From NCBI GenBank assembly GCA_027263115.1, contig GCA_027263115.1_3656.1: a DNA stretch of 64,000 bases; one strand, written 5' to 3'. Shown piece after piece: positions 32,611-44,127 of this stretch. Position numbers and translations under genes: made by a program. Within the stretch, counting starts at the first letter, position 1. Each line of letters starts with the position of its first letter. The notes under the pieces were generated by a model that made no database searches, was not told the DNA's origin, and saw nothing but the letters and a program-made list of their open reading frames with translations. Origin of the DNA: a phage.

Positions 32611-34734
32611 TCAGCAACCACAACTTCCGTAGTGCTTAACCCGTTCTATAACTTCCGCTTGCTTACCTTTATTGTAAGGACGGGAGTTTGGACTAGACAG
32701 GTACCCGGATACACGTCTGATCACACTGATCGTTCCCTCTTCATGGTTTCCACACTCTGGGCATACAAAGCCTTTAGCTGTTGCACTAAACTCACCAGAG
32801 AAACCACACTTGAGACATTTATCCACAGGTTGGTTAATACCAAAATACATAATGTGTTTATACCCGAAGTCAACAAGAGCCTCTAAAGCATCCAGGTTGT
32901 TTTTCAGATTTGGTGTCTCTACGTATCCGATGTTGCCACCAGAGGAGATCATAGCAAAACCTTCTTCATACTTCCACTTATCAAAAGGAGAGCTATTGAT
33001 CCATACTGGCTGATGGAAACTGTTGGTGAGATATTCATGCTCGTGCTTCAACACTTCAGGATATTCACGATCCAGACAGGTTGCAGCTTTATAGCATAGG
33101 CTCTCAGAAGGGGTGCCGTACAAGCTAAATGCTAGTCTACTTTCCTTCTTGTATCGCTCACAAGCATCTCTCATGTGCTGAAGGATTCCAAGAGCTAAAG
33201 CCTTGTCACCCTCTCTGCCCAAAATCTGACAGGTTTCATACACACCAATATACCCAATACTGATGGAAGCGTACCCGTCATAGAAGAGTTTATCAATACT
33301 CTCTTCAGGATCCAGGCGAGCAAGAGCGCCTTCACACCACATGATAGGGTTCTGCCCTGCCTTGGTGCCTTTCAGACGGTTAACCCTTACAAGGTGAGCC
33401 TCGTATGCAAGATCCAGATACTCGTCAAGAACGGCAAAGAAATCAACACCTTCCGTCTTAGCTTTTGCCGCAATCATTGGCAGGTTAAGACTAACAACAC
33501 CCAAGTTGAATCTGCCGAGGTATTTCTCCTCGCCTGTTTCCAAGTCATTGTATTTGCTAAGAAAACTCCGGCAACCCATGCTCGTTACTTTACCATCTGT
33601 CGAGCCTGTCACTTTACGATTTAGTGGAACAGAAACAAAGTCAGGATAAATCCGCTCTGCAGAGCATTCCAGAGCTAATCGTTTCAAATCATAGTTAGGA
33701 TCTCCAGGGTTCATGTTGACACCCTCTTCTAGGAAGAACAGCACTTTAGGGAACACAGGTGTGATACGTTCTTCACCAAGACCCATTTTGTGGACTTTCA
33801 AGTAATTTTTGGTAATCATTCTACCAAAGACCGAGGTATCCAGTCCTAAACTTAATGTGATGAATGGAGTTTGCCCGTTGACAGAAGTTAACGTATTGAT
33901 TTGATAGAGCAAAGTCTGCATGCTGTCAAATACGTCTTTATCTGTCATTTGCATTGCAACAGTCTCAGCATCTGGCAACCAATGTTCCTGGCAAAATTTA
34001 AGGTTCTTCTCATAGGTCGCTTCAGCATACTGTGCCAGATAATGATCAATATGGCTCATAGTCTGACCACCATATTGAGCACTAGCTACTGCACTAGAGA
34101 TTTGGCTAAGGATTGTTGTTGCAACCCCTATTGACTTCGGCTTACTGACATGGGCGTTACCAATGTTGAATCCGTTTTCCAACATATCTGGATAATTTAC
34201 CAAACAACAGTTTGTTAACGGACTGATCAAGTAGTCAAGATCATGCACATGGATGAAGCCTCTATTGTGCTCTTCTGAGACACGGTCTGGCAGGATCTGT
34301 GTTGATGCAAGGTGTTTGCTAAGGATGCCTGCAAGCAGGTCACGATGAGTGTGTACATGATTGGTAGGCTTATTTGCGTTTTCTTTTGTAAATTCATCAC
34401 AAGTGCGATCCAAGAAGCCACTAATATCTGCAAGCAGTTTTCCACCTGCCTCTCTATTATTATCTCTTGTCTGCCTATACTGGATGTATTCTCTGGCTGC
34501 ACATTTTAAACCCATATCCATAAGAGCGTCTTCAACAAGGATATGGATATTTTTTACAGAGATCGTGCACTGGTCGGTTGGTAGAGTGTTAGCAACAACT
34601 TCATTAACCGCGCAGGCGATCCGGTAAGCTTCTTCTTCAGTATGTCCAGACTCAAGTAAGGCGGACTCTGCCGCCTTGATCACCTTAATTCCGTTATAGA
34701 CCTCTTCTCTACCGTCCCGTTTTACAACTTTCAC
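32611..34734 (-). CDS. nrdD: anaerobic ribonucleoside-triphosphate reductase (class III)
   Basis: 707 aa; C-terminal glycyl-radical motif RRVSGYL and zinc-ribbon cysteines. Confidence 0.9.
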   Translation of the reverse strand: MKVVKRDGREEVYNGIKVIKAAESALLESGHTEEEAYRIACAVNEVVANTLPTDQCTISVKNIHILVEDALMDMGLKCAAREYIQYRQTRDNNREAGGKLLADISGFLDRTCDEFTKENANKPTNHVHTHRDLLAGILSKHLASTQILPDRVSEEHNRGFIHVHDLDYLISPLTNCCLVNYPDMLENGFNIGNAHVSKPKSIGVATTILSQISSAVASAQYGGQTMSHIDHYLAQYAEATYEKNLKFCQEHWLPDAETVAMQMTDKDVFDSMQTLLYQINTLTSVNGQTPFITLSLGLDTSVFGRMITKNYLKVHKMGLGEERITPVFPKVLFFLEEGVNMNPGDPNYDLKRLALECSAERIYPDFVSVPLNRKVTGSTDGKVTSMGCRSFLSKYNDLETGEEKYLGRFNLGVVSLNLPMIAAKAKTEGVDFFAVLDEYLDLAYEAHLVRVNRLKGTKAGQNPIMWCEGALARLDPEESIDKLFYDGYASISIGYIGVYETCQILGREGDKALALGILQHMRDACERYKKESRLAFSLYGTPSESLCYKAATCLDREYPEVLKHEHEYLTNSFHQPVWINSSPFDKWKYEEGFAMISSGGNIGYVETPNLKNNLDALEALVDFGYKHIMYFGINQPVDKCLKCGFSGEFSATAKGFVCPECGNHEEGTISVIRRVSGYLSSPNSRPYNKGKQAEVIERVKHYGSCGC

Positions 34735-35012: not shown

Positions 35013-36101
35013 TTAAAACTCCCAAATTTCTTCTTCAGCGTCGTTAACAGTTGTGTTGACGCGGTAGTCAGTGTTCGACATTTCTTGGTTCGCCGTCTGT
35101 TGCAATGAAGGTTTCATCCACACCTGCATAAACGGTAGAGGGTCCTTTGTTGGCGGCACAAAGTCTTTGTCGATGTCGTAGTAATCATAAATCGGTGAGC
35201 AGTTATAGTCAACCCATTCTTTAAGCAACGGTGAGTTAAGACCTATAATCGCTCTTCCTTCGCTGAAAATATAGTCACTCCAACCGTACTCTTTGGTTCG
35301 TACTTCATCAAGAATCTCTTTTAACTCCCCTTTTATCTCAAGGAAGCTTTTCTCCCATGCGGGATCATTAAGCAGGATATCAATGATGGCAAAATCACCT
35401 TTCGAATGTAGCATTTCGTCAAGCATGATTTTTTGAACAAGCTGCGCCACCTGAACAAAGATACCCTGCTCAGCTACTGCGAAAGTGCATGCAAAACTTG
35501 CAATAAACTCAATACTTTCCAGAGCTAAAAGTGCAAAAAGCGCTCTAAGAATGCATTTCCGCACAACATCTTCTTCAACACTAGAAGGATCCAGTCGGTA
35601 TTTTGCACCAATAACCTCAAGCTCTTGCATGTATTTGACAATAACGCCGGATCTGCTCAGAACGTTTTGGTTTTCCTGAATCTCTTCTATAATCTCACGG
35701 GCATTGGGGAGGCATTGTCTAACAATCTCTGAGTAAGTTAGTGCGTGAAGAACTTCAATCTCTGACTGTTTCATCAATAGAGTGAAAAGCTCACTATTGG
35801 TGATAAATGGTGAAAACAGACAAATGATAGATCTTGCCGCAACGCTATCAGCCTCCCATTGCCACATCAAGGTCTGCACCATCACGTCATAAGTTGACTT
35901 TGAGCATGTTACAAAATCTGAAATAGATTGCGACAAATCCACTTCATCCTCTGCCCAGTCTTGTTCTTTTTGTTTTTTGTATAGTTCAAACAGTTGTGGA
36001 TATTTTTTGTTGATAGAGTCGTACATACCCATTTGCTGTCCTAGAAACAGCGGATAGTCACCAGTTTTATGAGCGGTGTTCTCAGCATTAAATACAGCCA
36101 T
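35013..36101 (-). CDS. nrdB: ribonucleotide reductase class Ia beta subunit
   Basis: 362 aa; ferritin-like di-iron protein immediately downstream of nrdA. Confidence 0.85.
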   Translation of the reverse strand: MAVFNAENTAHKTGDYPLFLGQQMGMYDSINKKYPQLFELYKKQKEQDWAEDEVDLSQSISDFVTCSKSTYDVMVQTLMWQWEADSVAARSIICLFSPFITNSELFTLLMKQSEIEVLHALTYSEIVRQCLPNAREIIEEIQENQNVLSRSGVIVKYMQELEVIGAKYRLDPSSVEEDVVRKCILRALFALLALESIEFIASFACTFAVAEQGIFVQVAQLVQKIMLDEMLHSKGDFAIIDILLNDPAWEKSFLEIKGELKEILDEVRTKEYGWSDYIFSEGRAIIGLNSPLLKEWVDYNCSPIYDYYDIDKDFVPPTKDPLPFMQVWMKPSLQQTANQEMSNTDYRVNTTVNDAEEEIWEF

Positions 36102-36107
36102 TATTCT

Positions 36108-36135
36108 AACCTCTAAAATGGGGCCGAAGCCCCTT
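36108..36135 (-). terminator. hairpin (possible attenuator/terminator) between nrdA and nrdB
   Basis: GGGGC-TTCG-GCCCC stem followed by ATTTTAG on minus strand. Confidence 0.4.
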
Positions 36136-36140
36136 TAAAA

Positions 36141-38456
36141 TTATAGTGCACAACTTTCGCAATACTGATCTTCAACTGAACTATCTGCATTCAAAGGATA
36201 GTTCTTTCTGGTTTCATCTTCAGCCTGTTTCTTGGCATGAAGTTCCTCTGCCAAGGAGTCGCCAGCACCAACCCTAGAGTTTAAATAATACCATGTCTTC
36301 ATTCCGAATTTAGTGGCACGGATAAGGTACCCTAGCTGCTCCTTCATTGAAATTTTACCATCTTTCAACTTGGTGTAGTCTATGTACAAATCCGCGCTGA
36401 TTGCCTGACCTGTGAATTTTTGAATCACAGCATACATATCGATCATGTCGTTAGTATCAACGTCCCAAGCCGAAGTGTAATACTCTTTCAACTCATCATA
36501 GTCAGGAACGATAAACAGCACCTGCCCTTGTGGCGACTTTTTAAAGATAATGTGCTCACGGACAGGATAGACCCCGTTAGTGGTGTTTGTTGCCAGCGAA
36601 GAGCTTTCATTAGGCATATATGCTTCAAGAACGCTATTACGTAGCCCACCATTTTCAATGATTTCTTTACGTAACCCTTCCCAATCCTGTTTAAGAGAAG
36701 GATCTTTCACCACGCTATCGACCTCTTTGTTATAGGTGTCGATTGGTAACCAACCTTCTGGATATTTTGTTTTATGCATCCACTCGCAGACACCACGCTC
36801 TTTTGCCAACCGTAAACTTGCCTTATGCAAGCTGTAGCTGTGAAGTTCTGCAAGATCGTGAACGAGCTGTTTACTTTCAGGAGATCCGTAAGTAACCTTG
36901 TGGCTGGCAATAAAATGTGCAACATTGGTAAGGCCAACCCCGATGGATCTGCGTTTTTTAACTGTGCTTTCCATATTTTCATACGGATATGTCATGATTT
37001 CCATAACATTGTCAATCATAAGCACCGTATAGTATGCAACATCCTCATACTCCTCTGGAGTAACCCTCCCAGCTACAAGAGATGACAGGAAGCACAATGC
37101 AACCTCTCCATCATCAGCATCGTACTTGAAGATATTACGCATATCTGAATAGCCTTTTGTCGGGAGGGCTATTTCTGCACACAGGTTACTTGAATAGATC
37201 ACATCTTTAAAAGGTGTATGTCTATTCATCTCATCTGTCCAGTATACATACAGCCTTCCCACCTCAGTACGCTGCGTGATCAGTTCAACAGCAAGATCTC
37301 TGGCCCGGATCCATGTTTTAGGAATACTGTCATCTTTAGCAATACGATCAACCTCTGCATCAAACTCCTCCATAGACATGGTGAAGATACCCTCATGCAG
37401 TTGAGGCGCGTGCTTATAAGAAACAAGCATCCAATCCAAATTCTTAGCCACACGGTTGATAAACGACCTATTAATACCGATGGAGTAGTCCATGGTGTTG
37501 ATTCTTTTTGAAGCAACAGTCATAGGGTTTCTCAAACGGATTAGCTCATCAATCTGCGGGTCTAGTGCAAGAAATGATACTGTTGCAGAACCGCCACGTG
37601 ATTGTTGTCTGTTCTCCTTAACCCCAGCATCAATACCTCGATAATATGGAATCTTACCCATGTGTTTAATAGTGTTACCACGAACACCATCGCCTGCAGA
37701 TCTTGATGATAAATAGTAGCCGATACCTGCTTGGTTAACCGTCATTGTGTACGCAACTTCACGTGCCACACCAATAGATTTTGCTGTATCGTCAGCTTTT
37801 ATTACACAACAAGATGCATACCCTGTCTTACCTGTGCGCAGCCCGTTTAAGTACGGTGTCGGGGCATTGATCTTTAAGTCGGACAGATAAGTGTATAATT
37901 TTACAACATCGTTGATACGACGTTCTTTCGGCATATTCTTCATGACAGCCATTGCTATCCCCATAAACATCATCTGGGGAGATTCAAACAAGGTGTCTTT
38001 AAGAGTATCCTTGATCCCGTATTTGTCGCGAAACTGTTTAAGGACTGCATAGCCATAACCGAGATCTTTACTGTGGTCAATAACAGCGTCTAAAGTGTTT
38101 AGCTCGGTAAAGCTATAGCCCATATCCTCCCAATACCCTTTCTCAACCATGGTATTGTAAAATGATGGTAAGGAAGGGATCTTTGTAAACCCTCCAAAAG
38201 CCTCTTTATAAATCTGACCAATAAGAACACGACCAGCCATACGGGAATGTGCTTCGTCTTTACGGCTAACACAGGAGTCTATGATAGCTTGGTTAACTTC
38301 TTTGGTTGTACATCCATCATACAGTCGTTTGTATGCATCCAGTGCAATATGTGACCAATTGCCGTTACCGTCGTCACCGAAAATAGCTGCCTTATTTAAA
38401 CGTTCTGGATCGAATGCTACCTCACATCCGTTGCTTTTAATTACCTTGGTGATCAA
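36141..38456 (-). CDS. nrdA: ribonucleotide reductase class Ia alpha subunit
   Basis: 771 aa; N-terminal ATP-cone-like region, active-site NLCAEI, C-terminal CESC; TTG start after GGAGGAAG. Confidence 0.9.
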   Translation of the reverse strand: MITKVIKSNGCEVAFDPERLNKAAIFGDDGNGNWSHIALDAYKRLYDGCTTKEVNQAIIDSCVSRKDEAHSRMAGRVLIGQIYKEAFGGFTKIPSLPSFYNTMVEKGYWEDMGYSFTELNTLDAVIDHSKDLGYGYAVLKQFRDKYGIKDTLKDTLFESPQMMFMGIAMAVMKNMPKERRINDVVKLYTYLSDLKINAPTPYLNGLRTGKTGYASCCVIKADDTAKSIGVAREVAYTMTVNQAGIGYYLSSRSAGDGVRGNTIKHMGKIPYYRGIDAGVKENRQQSRGGSATVSFLALDPQIDELIRLRNPMTVASKRINTMDYSIGINRSFINRVAKNLDWMLVSYKHAPQLHEGIFTMSMEEFDAEVDRIAKDDSIPKTWIRARDLAVELITQRTEVGRLYVYWTDEMNRHTPFKDVIYSSNLCAEIALPTKGYSDMRNIFKYDADDGEVALCFLSSLVAGRVTPEEYEDVAYYTVLMIDNVMEIMTYPYENMESTVKKRRSIGVGLTNVAHFIASHKVTYGSPESKQLVHDLAELHSYSLHKASLRLAKERGVCEWMHKTKYPEGWLPIDTYNKEVDSVVKDPSLKQDWEGLRKEIIENGGLRNSVLEAYMPNESSSLATNTTNGVYPVREHIIFKKSPQGQVLFIVPDYDELKEYYTSAWDVDTNDMIDMYAVIQKFTGQAISADLYIDYTKLKDGKISMKEQLGYLIRATKFGMKTWYYLNSRVGAGDSLAEELHAKKQAEDETRKNYPLNADSSVEDQYCESCAL

Positions 38457-38693: not shown

Positions 38694-39155
38694 TTAGCTT
38701 TCAATACCGAATAATTTTTCCAGGCGATGCAGATCTTCAAAATTGAAAGGTTCATCAACAATATGAATATCTTCAGCCTTTTCAGATTGTTTTGTATACT
38801 TTCTTACATTAACACGATCCTCTACTGGGATATCATACGGGAGATCTTGAACAAGCATTGCCTCACCAGGTGCTTTATCCACATCTAAAATATCTACACC
38901 GTTATACATTTGCGGGTATCTAAAGTCTGCACGCATAACACCAGCAAATACATCTGCCTTTCGATAATGTGTTGGCTTATTTTTGCATCGAACGTTTTTT
39001 CCACGAAGAACATCAATACTTTTTAAATCAAACCCTACGGCAAAGAGTGCAGCTCGGAGACCGTTTCGTGTGCGAACGTTAAACCCAGGGACGGTAGCTA
39101 GGAAATCTAAAGTAACTGAAATAAATGTCTTTTTAGGAATCATAACATTACTCAT
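38694..39155 (-). CDS. hypothetical protein
   Basis: ATG after GGAGA (track ORF 38694..39194 trimmed). Confidence 0.5.
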   Translation of the reverse strand: MSNVMIPKKTFISVTLDFLATVPGFNVRTRNGLRAALFAVGFDLKSIDVLRGKNVRCKNKPTHYRKADVFAGVMRADFRYPQMYNGVDILDVDKAPGEAMLVQDLPYDIPVEDRVNVRKYTKQSEKAEDIHIVDEPFNFEDLHRLEKLFGIES

Positions 39156-39253
39156 ATCTGTCTCCATTTCTGGCTCACCAACAAAGTGAGCCATTATTAT
39201 AGATTATCTGATACTATTAGTCAACACAAAAGTTACCTATCGCTGTGATAGGA

Positions 39254-40237
39254 TTAACCTTTCACGAAGTGGTTATTAAGCAGTTGTCTGTGCTGAACCC
39301 ACCCACAAAAGTTGGCAGACCAGAATTTACCATCACGGTCTTGATGGGTTACACCTTCCTGCCAAACACAGCTGTCTTGTGTGATTTCACATGAAGACAG
39401 GTAGTAGTTTAAACGTTCCATTGCGTTATCGTGATCCATAGGTGTTGCCTGGTGCTCGTAAGGGCTTGCATGGATACGATCCCCACCAATCAATTTTTTA
39501 GCCACACTGTCTGCCTTTTCAAACGTGCTGTCAATATTTCGATAAGATACTTGTGCACAGCAACTAGCACTGATAGACAGAGCTTCTTTAGTATCGAGAA
39601 TGCAGAGCTTTCCTTCTGTGTCACGTACAGCGTAGTTAAACTCTCCGTCCAAATAAACGTGCTCTACATATGGAGTGTGCCATTGCCCTGGTTTAAGGAT
39701 TTCAGGAGTGCTATTCACAAGAGCTTCCCACATACAATTAGCCAACATCTGAATCGTAGGATCCGCATCGTGCCAGCAACGGAGATGGAAAAAATTATTC
39801 CACTCTGTGCTTGTTACAACTGTTTTCATGCGCTGAAACGGCTCCACTAAGCGGTTACATACTTGTTTATGGTAACCAGCAAGGGCGAACTTCTCTGCAT
39901 GCCAAGCGGCGTTTTTTGCAGCTTCTTTCCAAAACTCTTCAGGGGTTAGCTCCATGTCAGTGTACTCTACACGGATCTTTTGATCGTGTTCTCCACCATC
40001 TTCCATACCTCGCTTATTTACACCGAAGCGAACTGGCATTGCCGGATTCTCCACAATCTGTTGCAGCATCTTGCCGACAGGTACTGCACGGGAAGACATG
40101 GCGTTTCGGCTGAACACTCGGTGCGTCATAAGCTCTGAGTGAATAATTCGAGGATACTCTAGTTCAAAAGTGGTGATACGCTTACCTTTCTCGGAAATGC
40201 TGTCAGCAATAATCTTTGCAGTGCACAGTTTTAGCAT
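39254..40237 (-). CDS. thyX: flavin-dependent thymidylate synthase-like protein (ThyX family)
   Basis: 327 aa; THRVFSRNAMSSRAVP matches the ThyX RHRxxSxxxxSxR signature except first Arg is Thr; SD AGGAGA. Confidence 0.7.
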   Translation of the reverse strand: MLKLCTAKIIADSISEKGKRITTFELEYPRIIHSELMTHRVFSRNAMSSRAVPVGKMLQQIVENPAMPVRFGVNKRGMEDGGEHDQKIRVEYTDMELTPEEFWKEAAKNAAWHAEKFALAGYHKQVCNRLVEPFQRMKTVVTSTEWNNFFHLRCWHDADPTIQMLANCMWEALVNSTPEILKPGQWHTPYVEHVYLDGEFNYAVRDTEGKLCILDTKEALSISASCCAQVSYRNIDSTFEKADSVAKKLIGGDRIHASPYEHQATPMDHDNAMERLNYYLSSCEITQDSCVWQEGVTHQDRDGKFWSANFCGWVQHRQLLNNHFVKG

Positions 40238-40437
40238 TATTTAGCTCTCCTTGTTTTAATTTTGGAAATTTCGTCTGGGTTTACGTTGGCCTTAAATGCA
40301 AGGTATCTGTTGAACATGTCAGAGCACATATCTTGGGTGATCCTGGAGGCATACACTAGCTTACCTCCTAGATCATACACCTCTAGCCAGTCACCGTATC
40401 TGACTACAGGATCGCCACCTTTAGAACATCTGCCCAT
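40237..40437 (-). CDS. hypothetical protein
   Basis: 66 aa. Confidence 0.5.
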   Translation of the reverse strand: MGRCSKGGDPVVRYGDWLEVYDLGGKLVYASRITQDMCSDMFNRYLAFKANVNPDEISKIKTRRAK

Positions 40438-40438
40438 T

Positions 40439-41032
40439 TCAAATACCTTCTAAAAATTTTCCTATTTTATACCAGCTATTAGCGGTATAGTCAACACTGA
40501 CCTTTAACTCCTCGAATTGCTCATAAGGTGTATCTTTTAGGATTTTAATAACTTCAGGTCGTGAAGCGAATTGGTTCAGGTATTCATGCCTGTCGTCAAT
40601 TATAACATCTACAGCCACATTCCCTTTGAAATGTGTGGCGTAGAAGCCGTGGCCCTGGGTGTGATCGTCCAGATCCATAAAATCACTGGTCCAACGCTTT
40701 AAGAACCTTGATTTAGATGCAAGGTGACCTTTCTTGCATACCGAGATAAATGCAAGCTTGTGACCACGAGCCACCAAATCTTTCATAACCTCAATAGCCC
40801 CCTCTTCAGGCTTAAGAAAGTCGTAGAGGAACGGATCACTCCAGAAATCAAAAGGTCCTATGATGTTTTCTTTGGGGCGATCAGGCCAATACTTTGACAG
40901 ATCGTAATACATCAGCCCATTAGAAGGTTTAACGACTGTCTTACTGGCTGGACCATACAAACGCTCCAACCACTCCCACCATGCTGTTCCTGAATCTACC
41001 AGTGTCAAATCTACATCAATTCCGATTAACAT
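40439..41032 (-). CDS. HAD-superfamily phosphatase (5'-nucleotidase-like)
   Basis: 197 aa; N-terminal IGIDVDLTLVDS (DxDxT motif). Confidence 0.6.
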   Translation of the reverse strand: MLIGIDVDLTLVDSGTAWWEWLERLYGPASKTVVKPSNGLMYYDLSKYWPDRPKENIIGPFDFWSDPFLYDFLKPEEGAIEVMKDLVARGHKLAFISVCKKGHLASKSRFLKRWTSDFMDLDDHTQGHGFYATHFKGNVAVDVIIDDRHEYLNQFASRPEVIKILKDTPYEQFEELKVSVDYTANSWYKIGKFLEGI

Positions 41033-41640
41033 TCTTCTTGGGCCTCTTTAGCATCAATATACTTGCACACAATCTCCGATGCACATTCCCAAGGTGCACC
41101 TTCAGGATTTACAACATCGAACTCAATCCCTTTTATTCCGTTATTTTCCAGACTTAGATAGGTTCTGGAATCATTTCCCCAGTCATATCCGACACGGTGA
41201 ATACGGAACAACAACAGATCTCCACCTGTGCTGTATGCGTACTCGCTAAGGCATGCCAGCTCCTCTTTGAATCCCCCATCGGAGTAAACAATAACCCCTT
41301 TACCTTCAGGGAAATCTTTCTTCAAAGATGCGACTGCGGCTTTACCGAAAGCATCTTCACCAAAGATAGGTTTAATCAGATTTTCACTACAATGGATCAT
41401 CCATTCTCGCGGAGAAACATGCTTGCCGTCTATCATTAAGAAAGGGCAAGGCTCTTCTTTGTAGTGGCGGTCATAAAGTGCATTCCAGAGTTGAGGAGTT
41501 ACACCAGCTGCCTTAATTGCCACACTGAAGAGCATTTCCTTAACCTCACGGTGGTGTGAGTTAGGAATAGCTTCCAACAAGAGATCTGCAATGTGATCCT
41601 TACCACTGCTGGGTGGGGCGTTAAGAACAATAATATCCAT
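41026..41640 (-). CDS. P-loop nucleotide kinase (dNMP kinase-like)
   Basis: 204 aa; N-terminal LNAPPSSGKDH P-loop. Confidence 0.5.
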   Translation of the reverse strand: MDIIVLNAPPSSGKDHIADLLLEAIPNSHHREVKEMLFSVAIKAAGVTPQLWNALYDRHYKEEPCPFLMIDGKHVSPREWMIHCSENLIKPIFGEDAFGKAAVASLKKDFPEGKGVIVYSDGGFKEELACLSEYAYSTGGDLLLFRIHRVGYDWGNDSRTYLSLENNGIKGIEFDVVNPEGAPWECASEIVCKYIDAKEAQEEC

Positions 41641-41843
41641 TAAAAACCTCCGTGGTATTCTTCAACTGCATCAATAATACTTTTACACTTATCTACCAGC
41701 TCGTTAGCCACTACAGCATCGTCTTCCCAAACAGCCTCCTCAATCTGATCAAGCAATGATCGCATCTTACTCATCATTTCTGGGATAAAGTTTTCTGAAA
41801 AGCTGTCTGGAATTGTTAACTCTAGTGTCATTTCGGTCTCCAA
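41640..41843 (-). CDS. small acidic hypothetical protein
   Basis: 67 aa. Confidence 0.5.
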   Translation of the reverse strand: METEMTLELTIPDSFSENFIPEMMSKMRSLLDQIEEAVWEDDAVVANELVDKCKSIIDAVEEYHGGF

Positions 41844-41858
41844 TCATACTATGCGTTA

Positions 41859-42317
41859 TTAGAAGTTTGTTTTTACACGTCCCTTCTCATCAACCTCGTT
41901 GTTAGCTAAAAGCGTTACAAAGTCTGTGAAACGAACATGAAGAACCCTTTTCTTATCAAGGTATCCTAAAGCCACCCCTGAGAAATTTAGCATCAAAGGG
42001 GCTAAAGAAGCTCTGGCACTGAAATGCTGTTGTTCTACCCTTCCAACACCCTTAGTGTAGGATGGGTTAAGATTGTAAGTTCTGAATCCCAGTTTTGTTG
42101 GAGCTTTAGAATTAAAAACGACTTTATAGCGTTTCTTACTCAACTTATGCTCCAGGATAAGCATTCCCTTATCACCTTTGATAAGTTGAAAATCTGTAAA
42201 GTGCTCTTTTAAGACGAAAGGTAGTGCCAGTCCCATCGCCTGTCCTCTTTGTACCGCTGTCTCACCAAAAGCTTTTGCATCAGTAAGTTCTTTGGTCAAG
42301 TCTATGCTTTTGATCAT
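41859..42317 (-). CDS. hypothetical protein
   Basis: 152 aa. Confidence 0.55.
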   Translation of the reverse strand: MIKSIDLTKELTDAKAFGETAVQRGQAMGLALPFVLKEHFTDFQLIKGDKGMLILEHKLSKKRYKVVFNSKAPTKLGFRTYNLNPSYTKGVGRVEQQHFSARASLAPLMLNFSGVALGYLDKKRVLHVRFTDFVTLLANNEVDEKGRVKTNF

Positions 42318-43128
42318 ACCTGGTCTCCAAAATGTATTGTAGTTCTTTCTTACCTATACTCTTCATTCCAGCAGTCTTACCTGCTTCTTCTTGAAAAGAA
42401 GAATAGCATTCAGCAAACACTCTGTCAACACCGTTAACTAAAGATTTTATGAAATATGTTGATTCTTCAGATTTTGGGTCATCATCCCCCAATACTTTTC
42501 CAGCATTATACCCAACACGTCTTACACAGAAGTCGTAGTCATCTGGTGTGCTAAAAGAAAATAACTTATTCTCTCCAATCTCTACAGGATCCCTATTGCA
42601 CGCCTTTTTCTCCCAAATTTGGAAAACACATGGCACGTCATAAGGTTTGCCATTAAGTAAAAACGAATTCTTAGGGCACCTTTCGCTGTAGACAAGGTGC
42701 ATCGACATGTCCAGTTTGTTTGCAAAAAATATTTTTTCAAATGTCCGTGGCAAGATGAAGGCTATAGCCCCTCCAAGCTCTAGCAATGATGCACAATGGT
42801 TAAAGAATTTGCAAGCTAAGGATGAATTCTTGCCAAATGGTGGGTTACCTATGAAGACATCTGCCTTGGGATGCACCTCCAAGAAGTTTGCCTGAATGCA
42901 CGGTGTTGGTCCTTCAAATTCAGGATCTGGTACTAAATCGTACGACAGTATCTCTGAAAATAGTTTTGAAAAAGAACCCCTTCCAGCAGAAGGCTCAACG
43001 TATGCACAATTCCCATACTTATCTTTTACTTTACCAACAAGATATTCTGCATACTCAGGGTTTGTGTAGTATTTGTCGTTGGACTCTTTCTTGCTCAAAG
43101 TGCCTCCAAAAGGAAAAGGGAGGCGCAA
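42280..43128 (-). CDS. DNA methyltransferase (N6-adenine/N4-cytosine type)
   Basis: Motif I YVEPSAGRGSF and motif IV FIGNPPFG; true start probably TTG at 43098 after GGAGG. Confidence 0.7.
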   Translation of the reverse strand: MRLPFPFGGTLSKKESNDKYYTNPEYAEYLVGKVKDKYGNCAYVEPSAGRGSFSKLFSEILSYDLVPDPEFEGPTPCIQANFLEVHPKADVFIGNPPFGKNSSLACKFFNHCASLLELGGAIAFILPRTFEKIFFANKLDMSMHLVYSERCPKNSFLLNGKPYDVPCVFQIWEKKACNRDPVEIGENKLFSFSTPDDYDFCVRRVGYNAGKVLGDDDPKSEESTYFIKSLVNGVDRVFAECYSSFQEEAGKTAGMKSIGKKELQYILETRYDQKHRLDQRTY

Positions 43129-43143
43129 GCCTCCCTATAATTG

Positions 43144-44127
43144 TTAGATTATCTGAATCAGGGTATTTTTCATTTCTTCTCTGGTGCGGATGTTGTTACG
43201 GTCACGAACAACAGATCCACAACCTTCGCAGCGGTATGTTTTAAATGCACTCAGTTGAGTATACGCCAAAGCTTCTTCCTCGTGAAGGTGTTCTCCACCA
43301 CAGCGTGGGCAACGAACTTTTGGCTCCTCATCCTGGTAGTACAATGACATGTTGGGGTGCTGCTTAGCAAACGGGCGAGCCAGCAAATACAGGCCTTCCA
43401 GAGATAGGATATCGCCAACATTGTACTCCCGCATCTGTTTAAACGCCTCAAGATCACCGTGAACACACTTGATCCACATTTCAAATGTGTGGTCAATCAG
43501 TTTCTGTCGGGCAAGTTGGAAGTATTTGCATGCATACTCCAAAGTGTTTGCATTCAAACGGAATGCCTTCTTGATCATTTTAAGGGTGTCAACCTCTTTG
43601 TAGGGGCTTGTTGGAGGCAATCCGTGAAATGCAAATCGTTGGTTGGCCCACCCACAGTCAAAACCTGAATTGTGGGCTACTGCGACATCACATTTATCCA
43701 GATAATACCACAAATCCTGAATCAATTCGAGATCATTGTGAATATCCTCATCCCACATTTTGTAATCAGGAAGAGCGCAGTCAACCACACTAGGACTGTC
43801 TAACCACTTACCTGCGAAAGTTAGCATGTAGGGCATAATTTCAATACCGCAGGTTTGAATGTTGGTCTTATAGTGCCCAAAGAACCAGCCGTTTGTTGGG
43901 GATGTCTCTGTATCATACACCCAAACTTTAGCACCTTTGTGCTCTTCAAGGAAGCGCTCCGTTGCTTCTCCTACAATCTCTGACATATTCTCTTGTGCAC
44001 GTTTAAGCTGTAGTCGGATCCAGCTCTCACGTGACTCACGGCCTAAAAATTCACGAGCAATTTGTCTATTAGTGTATCCTTGTTGCTTTAGTGTTAAAAT
44101 TTGCTCAAGAGTTAACTTTGTCATCAT
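43144..44127 (-). CDS. DnaQ-like 3'-5' exonuclease (DEDD) with N-terminal HTH and C-terminal zinc ribbon
   Basis: 327 aa; VYDTETSP, AHNSGFDCGW, YNVGDI motifs; CPRC...CEGC. Confidence 0.6.
   Translation of the reverse strand: MMTKLTLEQILTLKQQGYTNRQIAREFLGRESRESWIRLQLKRAQENMSEIVGEATERFLEEHKGAKVWVYDTETSPTNGWFFGHYKTNIQTCGIEIMPYMLTFAGKWLDSPSVVDCALPDYKMWDEDIHNDLELIQDLWYYLDKCDVAVAHNSGFDCGWANQRFAFHGLPPTSPYKEVDTLKMIKKAFRLNANTLEYACKYFQLARQKLIDHTFEMWIKCVHGDLEAFKQMREYNVGDILSLEGLYLLARPFAKQHPNMSLYYQDEEPKVRCPRCGGEHLHEEEALAYTQLSAFKTYRCEGCGSVVRDRNNIRTREEMKNTLIQII

What the first reader, a model, noticed from the sequence alone, without database searches (positions are those of the whole stretch)
39254..41640. 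ThyX-like enzyme with a variant signature, clustered with a HAD nucleotidase and a P-loop kinase
The ThyX-like protein is long (327 aa) and its signature reads THR...S....S.R rather than RHR. It is followed by a DxDxT HAD phosphatase and a P-loop kinase. This could be ordinary dTMP synthesis and dNMP salvage, or part of a pathway making a modified pyrimidine.
Basis: inference. Interest (0 to 1): 0.4.

Follow-up and report, generated by a model that had tools for sequence, protein, structure and literature searches.

The report
Rearranged phage ThyX in dNTP operon
This is the ordinary nucleotide-supply gene cluster of an rV5-like E. coli phage (thymidylate synthase, deoxynucleotidase, dNMP kinase, next to ribonucleotide reductase). 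Its "odd" thymidylate synthase belongs to a very large, uncharacterised phage subfamily in which part of the enzyme has moved to the other end of the protein.

Summary
Three minus-strand genes encode a 327-aa ThyX-like protein (39254-40237), a DxDxT HAD phosphatase (40439-41032) and a P-loop kinase (41026-41640).

The window is a Vequintavirus (rV5-like coliphage). These genes end a tightly coupled operon just upstream of the nrdAB/nrdDG genes.

- **THR signature:** it is not a local oddity. It marks a huge phage subfamily (about 5,000 clusters at 50% identity; 1,036 of 50,697 phage genomes).
- **Rearrangement:** the N-terminal helix-helix-His segment of canonical ThyX lies after the core instead of before it.
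- **HAD protein:** an NT5C-type 5'(3')-deoxyribonucleotidase.
- **Kinase:** resembles T4 gp1 only weakly, and occurs in about 1,500 phages, many of them small phages in which no thymidylate synthase is expected.

No hypermodification genes lie nearby. Vequintavirinae are exceptionally restriction-sensitive, and this is the genome's only thymidylate synthase.

Ordinary dTMP synthesis is therefore the best reading (about 0.7). A simple base replacement such as 5-hmU is not excluded. Interest is modest; the point worth following up is the rearranged ThyX subfamily, for which I found no solved structure or assay.

The parts
39254..40237 (-). ThyX-like flavin-dependent thymidylate synthase homologue, 327 aa (rV5 gp106 orthologue).
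40088..40126 (-). ThyX signature THRVFSRNAMSSR (T38-R50), with Thr in place of the first Arg.
   Evidence: Translation. In 94 diverse homologues the counts are T38 89/94, H39 94/94, R40 78/94, S48 93/94, R50 94/94 and A51 94/94. THR occurs in 110 of the 150 top cluster representatives and RHR in 1.
39698..40183 (-). Core of the ThyX fold (residues 19-180). It carries R30, H39, R40, S48, R50, R129 and R153.
   Evidence: hhalign places residues 19-180 on T. maritima ThyX 59-201 (Prob 95.8%, E 8e-9) and on M. tuberculosis ThyX 76-225 (Prob 96.9%, E 2e-10).
39440..39592 (-). Relocated segment (residues 216-266): helix-helix-His loop with C-A-Q-V-S-Y-R and H-A-S-P-Y-E-H. It is homologous to the N-terminal 60 residues of canonical ThyX.
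   Evidence: hhalign places residues 221-267 on T. maritima ThyX 20-64 (Prob 66%, E 6e-5). The Pfam Thy1 profile matches isolated C-terminal fragments of three homologues at positions 9-57, 12-57 and 12-62 (E 8e-5, 0.04, 0.012). H256 and S231 are invariant and Y232 is Y or F in 94/94.
39284..39334 (-). Conserved C-terminal tail DGKFWSANFCGWVQHRQ, with N309 and Q315 nearly invariant and R317 invariant.
   Evidence: Column counts. There is a weak resemblance to the strand-helix of T. maritima ThyX 156-172 and M. tuberculosis ThyX 181-196 (E 0.04-0.08).
40237..40437 (-). 66-aa ORF of unknown function. Its stop codon overlaps the thyX start by 1 nt.
   Evidence: phrog_4903 gives E 1e-34. Junction sequence TAAATAATG. 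It was not found in the 80 distant loci.
40439..41032 (-). HAD-superfamily NT5C-type 5'(3')-deoxyribonucleotidase, 197 aa.
   Evidence: Pfam NT5C scores 27.2 bits against a gathering score of 24.8 over the full length. A profile of 14 homologues hits the human mitochondrial and cytosolic deoxyribonucleotidases 1mh9, 4l6a and 2i7d at E 4e-9 to 1e-5. All four HAD motifs align: DxDxT, S97, K107 and D146-D147.
41026..41640 (-). P-loop (G-K-D) kinase, putative dNMP kinase, 204 aa. It overlaps the HAD gene by 7 nt.
   Evidence: phrog_139 'deoxynucleoside monophosphate kinase' gives E 1e-43. There is no Pfam or NCBIfam hit. hhalign against T4 gp1 (1DEK) gives Prob 33%, E 4.6e-4 over the first 75 residues only. 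Only the 23-residue P-loop aligns with M6 gp54, a 5-hmdU DNA kinase.
41640..41843 (-). 67-aa acidic ORF. Its stop codon overlaps the kinase start by 1 nt. It is the first gene of the tightly coupled run.
   Evidence: phrog_7393 gives E 4e-30. Junction.
39196..39252 (-). Hairpin plus T-run (39252-39236) directly after the thyX stop, followed by a sigma-70-like promoter TTGACT-17-TATAAT (39224-39196). This marks the likely end of the operon and the start of the RNR transcription unit.
   Evidence: Consensus scan (11 of 12 promoter match) and sequence. The total count of promoter-like sites in the region does not exceed that in shuffled sequence, so this is suggestive only.
35013..38456 (-). Context: class Ia ribonucleotide reductase nrdA (36141-38456) and nrdB (35013-36101), immediately downstream.
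   Evidence: ORFs. Annotation of relatives 98% identical.
43117..43136 (-). Strong terminator-like hairpin between the DnaQ-like exonuclease gene and the methyltransferase gene. It is the probable upstream limit of the transcription unit.
   Evidence: 8-bp stem with 6 GC pairs, then TTTTCCTTTTG.

Best explanation
The region is the 3' end of a translationally coupled operon in a Vequintavirus (rV5-like) genome. Its job is to supply DNA precursors.

Reading 5'->3' on the minus strand, the genes are:
1. A small acidic protein.
2. A P-loop (GKD) nucleotide kinase, probably a dNMP kinase.
3. An NT5C-type HAD 5'(3')-deoxyribonucleotidase.
4. A 66-aa protein.
5. A flavin-dependent thymidylate synthase of the ThyX fold.

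The class Ia and class III ribonucleotide reductase genes follow under their own promoter.

Proposed mechanism (inferred):
- RNR makes deoxyribonucleotides.
- The ThyX-like enzyme reductively methylates dUMP to dTMP, using FAD, NADPH and methylene-tetrahydrofolate.
- The kinase converts dNMPs to dNDPs.
- The nucleotidase trims pyrimidine dNMP pools.

The Thr-His-Arg signature and the 327-aa length are family traits, not a local change. They define a very large phage-borne ThyX subfamily. In it the helix-helix-His-loop segment that opens canonical ThyX has been moved behind the catalytic core. The first Arg of RHR is Thr, and the lid Tyr is Ala.

What is shown: gene order, fold, residue conservation, segment order and family distribution.
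What is inferred: enzymatic activities, substrates and pathway logic.
For: Identity of the genome: 98-99% nucleotide identity to rV5-like coliphages. Relatives annotate this gene as thymidylate synthase, with nrdA, nrdB, grx, nrdD and nrdG downstream. The rV5 paper calls it gp106, thymidylate synthase (PMC3606486).

Residues that bind dUMP and FAD in solved ThyX structures (PMC3498832; PMC6514825) are conserved in 94 diverse homologues:
- R30 (= Mtb R87): 92/94.
- H39: 94/94.
- R40: 78/94.
- S48: 93/94.
- R50: 94/94.
- R129 (= Tm R147): 94/94.
- R153 (= Tm R174): 94/94.
- H256 (= Tm H53): 94/94.
- S258 (= Mtb S71): 90/94.

Selection: the family has 5,034 representatives at 50% identity with E<=1e-3, of which 4,292 have E<=1e-10. 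It occurs in 1,036 of 50,697 phage records. Inteins are inserted exactly at the THR and HASPFEH motifs.

Context in 80 distant viral loci: RNR large subunit in 29, RNR small subunit in 27, and replication nucleases. No hypermodification enzymes were seen.

Only thymidylate synthase: the relative EmilHeitz has no other annotated one. tblastn with a ThyA-family protein and two canonical ThyX sequences finds nothing in that genome or in the window (best E 0.06).

HAD protein: NT5C family, E 4e-9 to human mdN, all motifs present.

Phenotype: Vequintavirinae are 'exceptionally susceptible' to restriction-modification systems (PMC8594841). rV5 DNA is cut by XbaI.
Against: - No member of this subfamily has a solved structure. 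A PDB sequence search finds nothing at E<1 with the protein alone, and the family profile gives E 0.6. I also found no assay in the literature searches.
- The protein fails the NCBI thyX equivalog cut-off: 40 bits against 87.9.
- Two reaction-centre residues of the canonical motif are systematically replaced. The first Arg of RHR contacts the flavin and dUMP, and it is Thr. The lid Tyr over C5/N5 is Ala.
- The kinase assignment rests on a PHROG label and a weak, partial match to T4 gp1.
- No phage dCMP deaminase or dUTPase is annotated to supply dUMP, so the host would have to provide it.
- Restriction sensitivity rules out bulky adducts. It does not rule out a simple replacement such as 5-hmU; this point rests on my own knowledge of SPO1 DNA.
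Confidence: 0.72

Rival explanations
1. Base-replacement pathway of the SPO1 or T4 type. The variant ThyX releases 5-hydroxymethyl-dUMP, or another C5-modified dUMP, instead of dTMP. The NT5C-type nucleotidase removes dTMP. The GKD kinase phosphorylates the modified nucleotide. Phage DNA would then carry a simple modified pyrimidine.
For: - The two substituted residues (R->T and lid Y->A) sit at the flavin N5 / dUMP C5 reaction centre. An opened lid could let water reach the exocyclic-methylene intermediate that ThyX chemistry forms (described in PMC8989533).
- Characterised NT5C enzymes prefer dUMP and dTMP (own knowledge).
- The HAD gene lies directly upstream of the ThyX-like gene, on the same strand, in 15 of 80 distant loci. 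MazG-like genes occur in 12.
- T4 gp1, the nearest characterised kinase, serves a modified-base pathway (own knowledge).
- I found no nucleoside analysis of Vequintavirus DNA.
Against: - Known hm-pyrimidine pathways use ThyA-family hydroxymethylases, 5-hmdU DNA kinases and transferases (PMC8989533). None is present, and the kinase shares only its P-loop with M6 gp54.
- No dTTPase, dUTPase, dCTPase or glycosyltransferase is annotated near the cluster or elsewhere in the nucleotide genes.
- The three genes co-occur in only 3 of 80 loci.
- The kinase family is in 1,529 phage records, among them many T1-like siphoviruses and small podoviruses, which are not expected to encode a thymidylate synthase (not checked per genome).
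- The ThyX subfamily is present in long-studied phages such as ICP1, PAK_P1-like and N4-like phages. I know of no report of unusual bases in them.
- The phage group is exceptionally restriction-sensitive.
Confidence: 0.07
2. The ThyX-like protein is a flavin-dependent C5-methylase with a different substrate. Candidates are UMP (as for the nucleoside-antibiotic enzyme PolB), dCMP, or a nucleic acid. It would then not be a dUMP-specific thymidylate synthase.
Against: - The phosphate-binding residues (R30, S48, R50, R129) and the uracil-binding Arg (R153) are essentially invariant. This points to a uracil mononucleotide.
- The gene is consistently linked with RNR genes and lies in DNA-replication modules.
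- No other thymidylate synthase is present in the genome.
Confidence: 0.05
3. The kinase and the HAD phosphatase together form a split polynucleotide kinase/3'-phosphatase (T4 Pnkp-like) for nucleic-acid end healing. On this reading they are unrelated to nucleotide pools.
For: T4 Pnkp combines a P-loop kinase with a DxDxT phosphatase (own knowledge). The two genes overlap by 7 nt.
Against: - The HAD profile matches NT5C deoxyribonucleotidases over its full length (E 4e-9). Its Pfam hit is NT5C.
- The close relative EmilHeitz already encodes a separate polynucleotide kinase, phosphoesterase and RNA ligase elsewhere.
- The kinase carries the GKD loop and the PHROG dNMP-kinase assignment.
- Both genes occur together near the ThyX-like gene in only 3 of 80 loci.
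Confidence: 0.02
4. The ThyX-like protein is catalytically dead and serves a structural or regulatory role, for example within a dNTP-synthesising complex.
For: A canonical Arg and the lid Tyr are lost. There are no biochemical data.
Against: More than ten active-site residues are invariant or nearly invariant across sequences only 37-50% identical. Inteins lie in two active-site motifs. The family is very large.
Confidence: 0.03

Closest known systems
Canonical flavin-dependent thymidylate synthase ThyX/FDTS (T. maritima TM0449, PDB 1KQ4/1O26; M. tuberculosis Rv2754c, 2AF6; PBCV-1 A674R, 4FZB).
   Same: - Same order of H-R-x7-S-x-R, the R147 equivalent and the R174 equivalent within the core.
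- The His-loop motif H-x-S-P-x-E-H is conserved.
- Pfam Thy1 scores above its gathering threshold.
   Different: - The protein is 327 aa, against about 190-250.
- Thy1 profile positions 1-59 (helices 1-2 and the His53 loop) lie after the core, at residues 216-266, instead of before it.
- The first Arg of RHR is Thr (89/94), and the lid Tyr is Ala (94/94).
- T. maritima N163 and R165 are both Thr in the core.
- There is an extra conserved C-terminal tail with an invariant Arg.
- The protein scores below the TIGR02170 cut-off.
- It is undetectable by plain sequence search of the PDB.
PolB, the ThyX-fold UMP/dUMP C5-methylase of polyoxin biosynthesis (PDB 4P5A).
   Different: PolB belongs to an antibiotic gene cluster in Streptomyces and has the canonical segment order. 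Here the context is phage RNR and replication genes.
T4 gp1 deoxynucleoside monophosphate kinase (PDB 1DEK).
   Same: Unusual Walker A motif ending G-K-D. There is a weak profile match over the first 75 residues (E 4.6e-4). PHROG 139 carries the same functional label.
   Different: The match is partial and of low probability (33%). There is no Pfam or NCBIfam hit, and the PDB profile search recovers only generic P-loops. Substrate range is unknown.
NT5C family 5'(3')-deoxyribonucleotidases (human mdN 1MH9, cdN 2I7D; S. epidermidis 3BWV).
   Same: Full-length profile match at E 4e-9 to 8e-8. All four HAD motifs are present, including the family-typical I-D-D-R.
   Different: Identity is low. 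The cap region (residues 15-75) is lineage-specific. No substrate data exist.
Phage pyrimidine-modification pathways: T4 hmC, SPO1 hmU, and the thymidine hypermodification clusters of M6, ViI, SP10 and PhiW-14 (PMC8989533).
   Same: Superficially similar parts list: a C5 one-carbon transferase acting on a pyrimidine nucleotide, plus a P-loop kinase and a phosphohydrolase.
   Different: Those pathways use ThyA-family hydroxymethylases, 5-hmdU DNA kinases, aGPT-Pplases and dNTP-exclusion enzymes. Here the transferase has the ThyX fold, the kinase shares only its P-loop with M6 gp54, no transferase genes are present, and the phage group is restriction-sensitive.

Membership tests
ThyX / flavin-dependent thymidylate synthase | Pfam PF02511 (Thy1) domain above the gathering score. 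| tested here: met
   37.3 bits against 24.8. However, only profile positions 60-190 are matched, at residues 23-178. Nine further family members show the same partial match.
ThyX / flavin-dependent thymidylate synthase | NCBIfam TIGR02170 thyX equivalog cut-off. | tested here: not met
   40 bits against a cut-off of 87.9.
ThyX / flavin-dependent thymidylate synthase | ThyX three-dimensional fold. | tested here: met
   [not shown]
ThyX / flavin-dependent thymidylate synthase | Signature RHRxxSxxxxSxR: the first Arg. | tested here: not met
   T38. Across 94 homologues the column is T 89, K 3, R 2.
ThyX / flavin-dependent thymidylate synthase | Signature RHRxxSxxxxSxR: the His, second Arg, both Ser and last Arg. 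| tested here: met
   H39 94/94, R40 78/94, S43 88/94, S48 93/94, R50 94/94.
ThyX / flavin-dependent thymidylate synthase | Lid Tyr following S-x-R (Mtb Y108, Tm Y91). | tested here: not met
   A51 in 94/94. The role of this Tyr is described in PMC6514825.
ThyX / flavin-dependent thymidylate synthase | Uracil- and phosphate-binding Arg residues (Tm R147, R174; Mtb R87). | tested here: met
   R129 94/94, R153 94/94 and R30 92/94.
ThyX / flavin-dependent thymidylate synthase | N-terminal helix-helix-His loop (Tm H53) placed before the core. | tested here: not met
   The segment exists, with H256 invariant, but lies C-terminal to the core. Thy1 profile positions 9-62 match residues after W186. 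hhalign places residues 221-267 on Tm 20-64.
ThyX / flavin-dependent thymidylate synthase | FAD-bound homotetramer converting dUMP to dTMP with CH2-THF and NADPH. | not testable with these tools
   This needs expression, flavin analysis and enzyme assays.
NT5C 5'(3')-deoxyribonucleotidase (HAD superfamily) | Pfam PF06941 above the gathering score, with homology to solved mdN/cdN structures. | tested here: met
   27.2 bits against 24.8, full length. Profile E 4e-9 to 1mh9.
NT5C 5'(3')-deoxyribonucleotidase (HAD superfamily) | Four HAD catalytic motifs: DxDx[TV], S/T, K, DD. | tested here: met
   D6, D8, S97 and K107 are invariant, D147 is nearly invariant, and T10 and D146 are present.
NT5C 5'(3')-deoxyribonucleotidase (HAD superfamily) | Dephosphorylation of deoxyribonucleoside monophosphates. 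| not testable with these tools
   Needs an enzyme assay.
T4 gp1-type dNMP kinase | Sequence or profile homology to gp1 over the whole fold. | tested here: inconclusive
   hhalign gives Prob 33%, E 4.6e-4, over the first 75 residues only. The PDB profile search returns only P-loops. phrog_139 gives E 1e-43.
T4 gp1-type dNMP kinase | Walker A motif ending G-K-D. | tested here: met
   SSGKD at residues 11-15. G-K-D is conserved in all homologues whose N-terminus is present.
Thymidine hypermodification / hm-pyrimidine pathways | ThyA-family dUMP or dCMP hydroxymethylase. | tested here: not met
   The family profile shows no similarity to M6 gp58 (E 0.36). No ThyA-family hit was found in the window or in the full genome of a close relative.
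Thymidine hypermodification / hm-pyrimidine pathways | 5-hmdU DNA kinase (5-HMUDK). | tested here: not met
   Only the 23-residue P-loop aligns with M6 gp54.
Thymidine hypermodification / hm-pyrimidine pathways | Transferases (aGPT-Pplase, glycosyltransferase) or dNTP-exclusion enzymes in the cluster. | tested here: not met
   None among the window neighbours. None among recurrent neighbours in 80 loci. None annotated in EmilHeitz near the nucleotide genes.
Thymidine hypermodification / hm-pyrimidine pathways | Virion DNA carrying non-canonical pyrimidines or resisting restriction. | not testable with these tools
   The literature reports exceptional restriction-modification sensitivity (PMC8594841) and XbaI digestion (PMC3606486). 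I found no nucleoside analysis.

The most novel reading that the evidence does not exclude
The THR-type, segment-swapped ThyX proteins would not be thymidylate synthases but dUMP C5-hydroxymethylases, or makers of another C5-modified dUMP. The loss of the lid Tyr and of the flavin-contacting Arg would expose the exocyclic-methylene intermediate to water. Together with the adjacent NT5C-type nucleotidase (a dTMP/dUMP sink) and the GKD kinase, they would form a ThyX-based base-replacement pathway. That pathway would be present in more than a thousand sequenced phages of Gram-negative bacteria. It would have gone unnoticed because simple hmU-type DNA is still cut by many restriction enzymes.
Probability: 0.06. 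Interest if true: 0.8.

Novelty: new variant of a known kind. Interest (0 to 1): 0.3.

Why it matters
As a gene cluster this is routine. It is the dNTP-supply module of a well-known coliphage group, already annotated as such.

The point that deserves attention is the enzyme family. The thymidylate synthase carried by rV5-like, ICP1, PAK_P1-like, N4-like and many other phages belongs to a distinct ThyX lineage:
- about 5,000 clusters at 50% identity;
- a rearranged segment order;
- two substitutions at the reaction centre;
- no solved structure in the PDB copy searched, and no biochemical characterisation found in the papers searched.

ThyX is studied both as a mechanistic curiosity (flavin-mediated methylene transfer) and as an antibacterial target. 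A natural variant that lacks the 'essential' first Arg and the lid Tyr would test current ideas of how the flavin, the folate and dUMP are positioned.

It would also tell annotators whether 'FAD-dependent thymidylate synthase' is a safe label for thousands of phage genes.

Tried and rejected
- **Plain PDB sequence searches.** All three proteins gave nothing useful. Profiles were needed.
- **Tandem-duplication origin.** I tested whether the protein is an internal tandem duplication. hhalign of the N-half against the C-half found no repeat (E 0.23). The duplication-plus-truncation origin of the rearrangement therefore stays speculative.
- **Canonical ThyX profile.** The database search returned only actinobacterial sequences and added little beyond the two reference sequences. 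The Pfam scan of isolated C-terminal fragments was more informative.
- **Domain fusions.** Longer homologues were checked for informative fusions. Only inteins or unannotated extensions were found.
- **Regulatory RNA.** Rfam found nothing at gathering thresholds between 30000 and 48000.
- **Kinase as 5-hmdU DNA kinase.** Rejected; only the P-loop aligns.
- **Split-Pnkp idea.** Rejected.
- **AFDB fold library.** It was not available.
- **Literature.** Searches found no description of this subfamily's architecture or activity. PMC2258874, on the extended ThyX motif, is not held in the library.


Full report
**1. Observation**

The minus strand of 39254-41843 carries five closely packed ORFs:
- a 67-aa ORF (41640-41843);
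- a 204-aa P-loop protein (41026-41640);
- a 197-aa HAD protein (40439-41032);
- a 66-aa ORF (40237-40437);
- a 327-aa ThyX-like protein (39254-40237).

Neighbouring genes overlap by 1 or 7 nt or are 1 nt apart. The ThyX-like ORF cannot be extended upstream, so its N-terminus is complete.

**2. What genome this is**

The 2.4-kb stretch is 98-99% identical to rV5-like coliphages of the genus Vequintavirus, and 121 records match.

In well-annotated relatives the neighbours are a DnaQ-like exonuclease and an N6-adenine methyltransferase upstream. Downstream lie two small genes, then nrdA, nrdB, glutaredoxin, nrdD and nrdG.

After the thyX stop comes a small hairpin with a T-run, and then an 11/12 match to a sigma-70 promoter. 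A strong terminator-like hairpin lies at 43117-43136. The cluster therefore looks like the tail of one transcription unit, with the RNR genes forming the next. These are consensus matches only.

**3. The ThyX-like protein is a real member of the ThyX fold**

- Pfam Thy1 is passed (37.3 bits against 24.8), but only for residues 23-178 against profile positions 60-190.
- The NCBI equivalog model is failed (40 bits against 87.9).
- Plain sequence search of the PDB finds nothing.
- With 94 diverse homologues the AlphaFold model reaches pLDDT 93.5 and pTM 0.91.
- Profile-profile alignment places residues 19-180 on T. maritima ThyX 59-201 (Prob 95.8%) and on M. tuberculosis ThyX 76-225 (Prob 96.9%). 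I wrote the two reference sequences from memory. The T. maritima one was checked residue by residue against 1KQ4. The M. tuberculosis one was checked only indirectly, by its strong hits to mycobacterial ThyX proteins.

**4. The variant signature is a family hallmark**

The family is very large. A full scan of 1.84 billion cluster representatives gives 5,034 hits at E<=1e-3 and 4,292 at E<=1e-10. Median length is 323 aa. tblastn finds it in 1,036 of 50,697 phage records. These include Vequintavirinae, Vibrio ICP1, Pseudomonas PAK_P1-like phages, N4-like podoviruses, Caulobacter and Flavobacterium phages and others.

Among the 150 best representatives, 110 read THR and one reads RHR.

Conservation in the 94-sequence alignment:

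| Residue | Count (of 94) |
|---|---|
| T38 | 89 |
| H39 | 94 |
| R40 | 78 |
| S48 | 93 |
| R50 | 94 |
| A51 | 94 |
| R129 | 94 |
| R153 | 94 |
| H256 | 94 |
| R317 | 94 |

I mapped these onto solved enzymes using the published residue roles (PMC3498832; PMC6514825).
- **Retained:** the nucleotide-binding set, namely Mtb R87, S105, R107, R199 and Tm R147.
- **Replaced:** the first Arg of RHR, which contacts the isoalloxazine ring and dUMP, is Thr. The Tyr that lids the C5/N5 reaction centre is Ala.

A basic residue at position 44 (R or K in 89/94) and the invariant R317 are candidates for compensation. This is inference, because I could not inspect coordinates.

Homologues of 550-680 aa contain inteins. 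These are inserted directly after THR or inside the H-A-S-P-F-E-H motif. Inteins typically sit at functionally critical sites of essential enzymes.

**5. The extra length is a rearrangement**

Every family member tested matches Pfam Thy1 only from profile position 55-60 onwards, where a near-full-length stretch aligned at all. The missing first 59 positions hold helices 1 and 2 and the His53 loop, which stacks the folate and helps hold FAD. They are found behind the core:
- hhalign aligns residues 221-267 (ISASCCAQVSYR...HASPYEHQATP) with T. maritima residues 20-64 (Prob 66%, E 6e-5). The equivalent match to the M. tuberculosis profile has E 1.6e-3.
- I scanned isolated C-terminal fragments of 32 homologues, each starting at W186, against all of Pfam. 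Thy1 was the only family hit by more than two of them: 4 members, best E 8e-5.
- The three hits I located lie at profile positions 9-57, 12-57 and 12-62.
- The Tyr-x23-His spacing also resembles the Tyr-x24-His of the published extended ThyX motif. I recall that motif from Ulmer et al. 2008, a paper not held in the library.

The segment order is thus B-A instead of A-B. I rate this at about 85%.

A conserved tail (W-S-G-N-F-x-G-W-x-Q-x-R-Q) weakly resembles the strand-helix that carries the FAD-binding Asn and Arg in canonical ThyX (E 0.04-0.08). The corresponding positions in the core are both Thr here.

An origin by tandem duplication and complementary loss would explain this. However, the two halves show no detectable similarity to each other, so that origin remains a hypothesis.

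I found no description of this architecture in the searchable literature.

**6. The partners**

*HAD protein.* It is an NT5C-type 5'(3')-deoxyribonucleotidase. Pfam NT5C is above threshold over the full length. A 14-sequence profile hits human mitochondrial and cytosolic deoxyribonucleotidases at E 4e-9 to 1e-5, with all four HAD motifs aligned.

*Kinase.* It is less certain. phrog_139 (dNMP kinase) gives E 1e-43, but there is no Pfam or NCBIfam hit. Only the first 75 residues align to T4 gp1 (Prob 33%; gp1 sequence verified). It shares only its P-loop with the 5-hmdU DNA kinase of phage M6.

The kinase family occurs in 1,529 phage records. Many are small T1-like siphoviruses and podoviruses, which are not expected to carry a thymidylate synthase, though I did not check this genome by genome. 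It is therefore not a dedicated partner of the ThyX-like enzyme.

**7. Is the trio a pathway?**

I examined 80 distant IMG/VR loci that carry the ThyX-like gene (40-88% identity).

| Neighbour | Loci (of 80) |
|---|---|
| RNR large subunit | 29 |
| 5'-exonuclease-like protein | 28 |
| RNR small subunit | 27 |
| HAD gene | 15 |
| MazG-like | 12 |
| Kinase | 10 |
| HAD and kinase together | 3 |

The HAD gene always lies upstream on the same strand. No transferases, radical-SAM enzymes, amidoligases or similar genes recur. The linkage is recurrent but facultative, as expected for interchangeable nucleotide-metabolism genes.

The complete genome of the close relative EmilHeitz has no other annotated thymidylate synthase, DHFR, dCMP deaminase or dUTPase. 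It does have a separate polynucleotide kinase, phosphoesterase and RNA ligase, four N6-adenine methyltransferases and a Dcm-like methyltransferase. tblastn with a ThyA-family protein and two canonical ThyX sequences finds nothing in that genome or in the window.

**8. Modified DNA?**

- The BASEL study reports that Vequintavirinae are 'exceptionally susceptible' to restriction-modification systems and seem to lack effective protection (PMC8594841).
- rV5 DNA is cut by XbaI (PMC3606486).
- Known thymidine hypermodification uses ThyA-family hydroxymethylases, 5-hmdU DNA kinases and aGPT-Pplases (PMC8989533). None of these is present.

This argues strongly against bulky hypermodification. It does not formally exclude a simple replacement such as 5-hmU, because hmU DNA such as that of SPO1 is cut by many restriction enzymes (my own knowledge). 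I found no nucleoside analysis. Given the altered reaction centre, I keep a small probability (about 6-7%) for a non-dTMP product.

**9. Verdict**

The cluster is an ordinary phage dNTP-supply module, already annotated as such.

The worthwhile residue is that the 'thymidylate synthase' of this and more than a thousand other sequenced phages belongs to a rearranged ThyX subfamily with no solved structure in the PDB copy searched. This subfamily fails several defining features of ThyX while keeping the fold and the nucleotide-binding residues.

Novelty: a new variant of a known kind. Interest: modest (0.3).

Noticed in passing
window 32611-34734 (-), insertion point near 33874/33875: The class III RNR gene nrdD is uninterrupted here (707 aa). 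In the close relatives EmilHeitz and Mangalyan it is split by an insertion of about 797 bp that encodes an HNH homing endonuclease.
   Followed up: partly
GenBank records MG065644-MG065685 (hits H1, H2, H26, H27, H99, H101): About 20 records named 'Campylobacter phage' are 98.7-100% identical to E. coli Vequintavirus in this region. Others from the same series match T1-like coliphages. The host labels look wrong.
   Followed up: no
proteins P0125, P0134, P0145, P0153, P0158, P0163, P0214, P0216: Homologues of the ThyX-like protein that are 520-680 aa long carry inteins, some with homing-endonuclease domains. The inteins are inserted right after the T-H-R motif or inside the H-A-S-P-F-E-H motif.
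   Followed up: partly
window 39155-39224 (-): The sigma-70-like promoter (TTGACT-17-TATAAT) ends 1 nt before the ATG at 39194. The downstream gene therefore more likely starts at Met14 (39155). Mangalyan annotates it that way, and the PHROG match covers residues 14-166.
   Followed up: partly
window 42280-43128 (-): This ORF has the N6-adenine methyltransferase motifs EPSAGRG and NPPF and overlaps the next ORF (41859-42317) by 38 nt. Close relatives encode four N6A methyltransferases and a Dcm-like enzyme yet remain restriction-sensitive.
   Followed up: no
L027 6961-7326 and 23 other IMG/VR loci: A family of about 118 aa with no Pfam hit lies directly downstream of the ThyX-like gene, between it and the RNR small subunit, in 24 of 80 distant viral loci.
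   Followed up: no
window 43144-44127 (-): A DnaQ-like 3'-5' exonuclease with a C-terminal zinc ribbon (phrog_403, 'DNA polymerase exonuclease subunit') is encoded separately from the DNA polymerase.
   Followed up: no
BFVD hits: Several other 'long' phage ThyX-like proteins of 300-370 aa exist, for example in crAss-like phages, Gordonia phages and Pseudomonas phage goonie. They match only the core of this model (TM about 0.3), so phage ThyX may have been extended or rearranged more than once.
   Followed up: no
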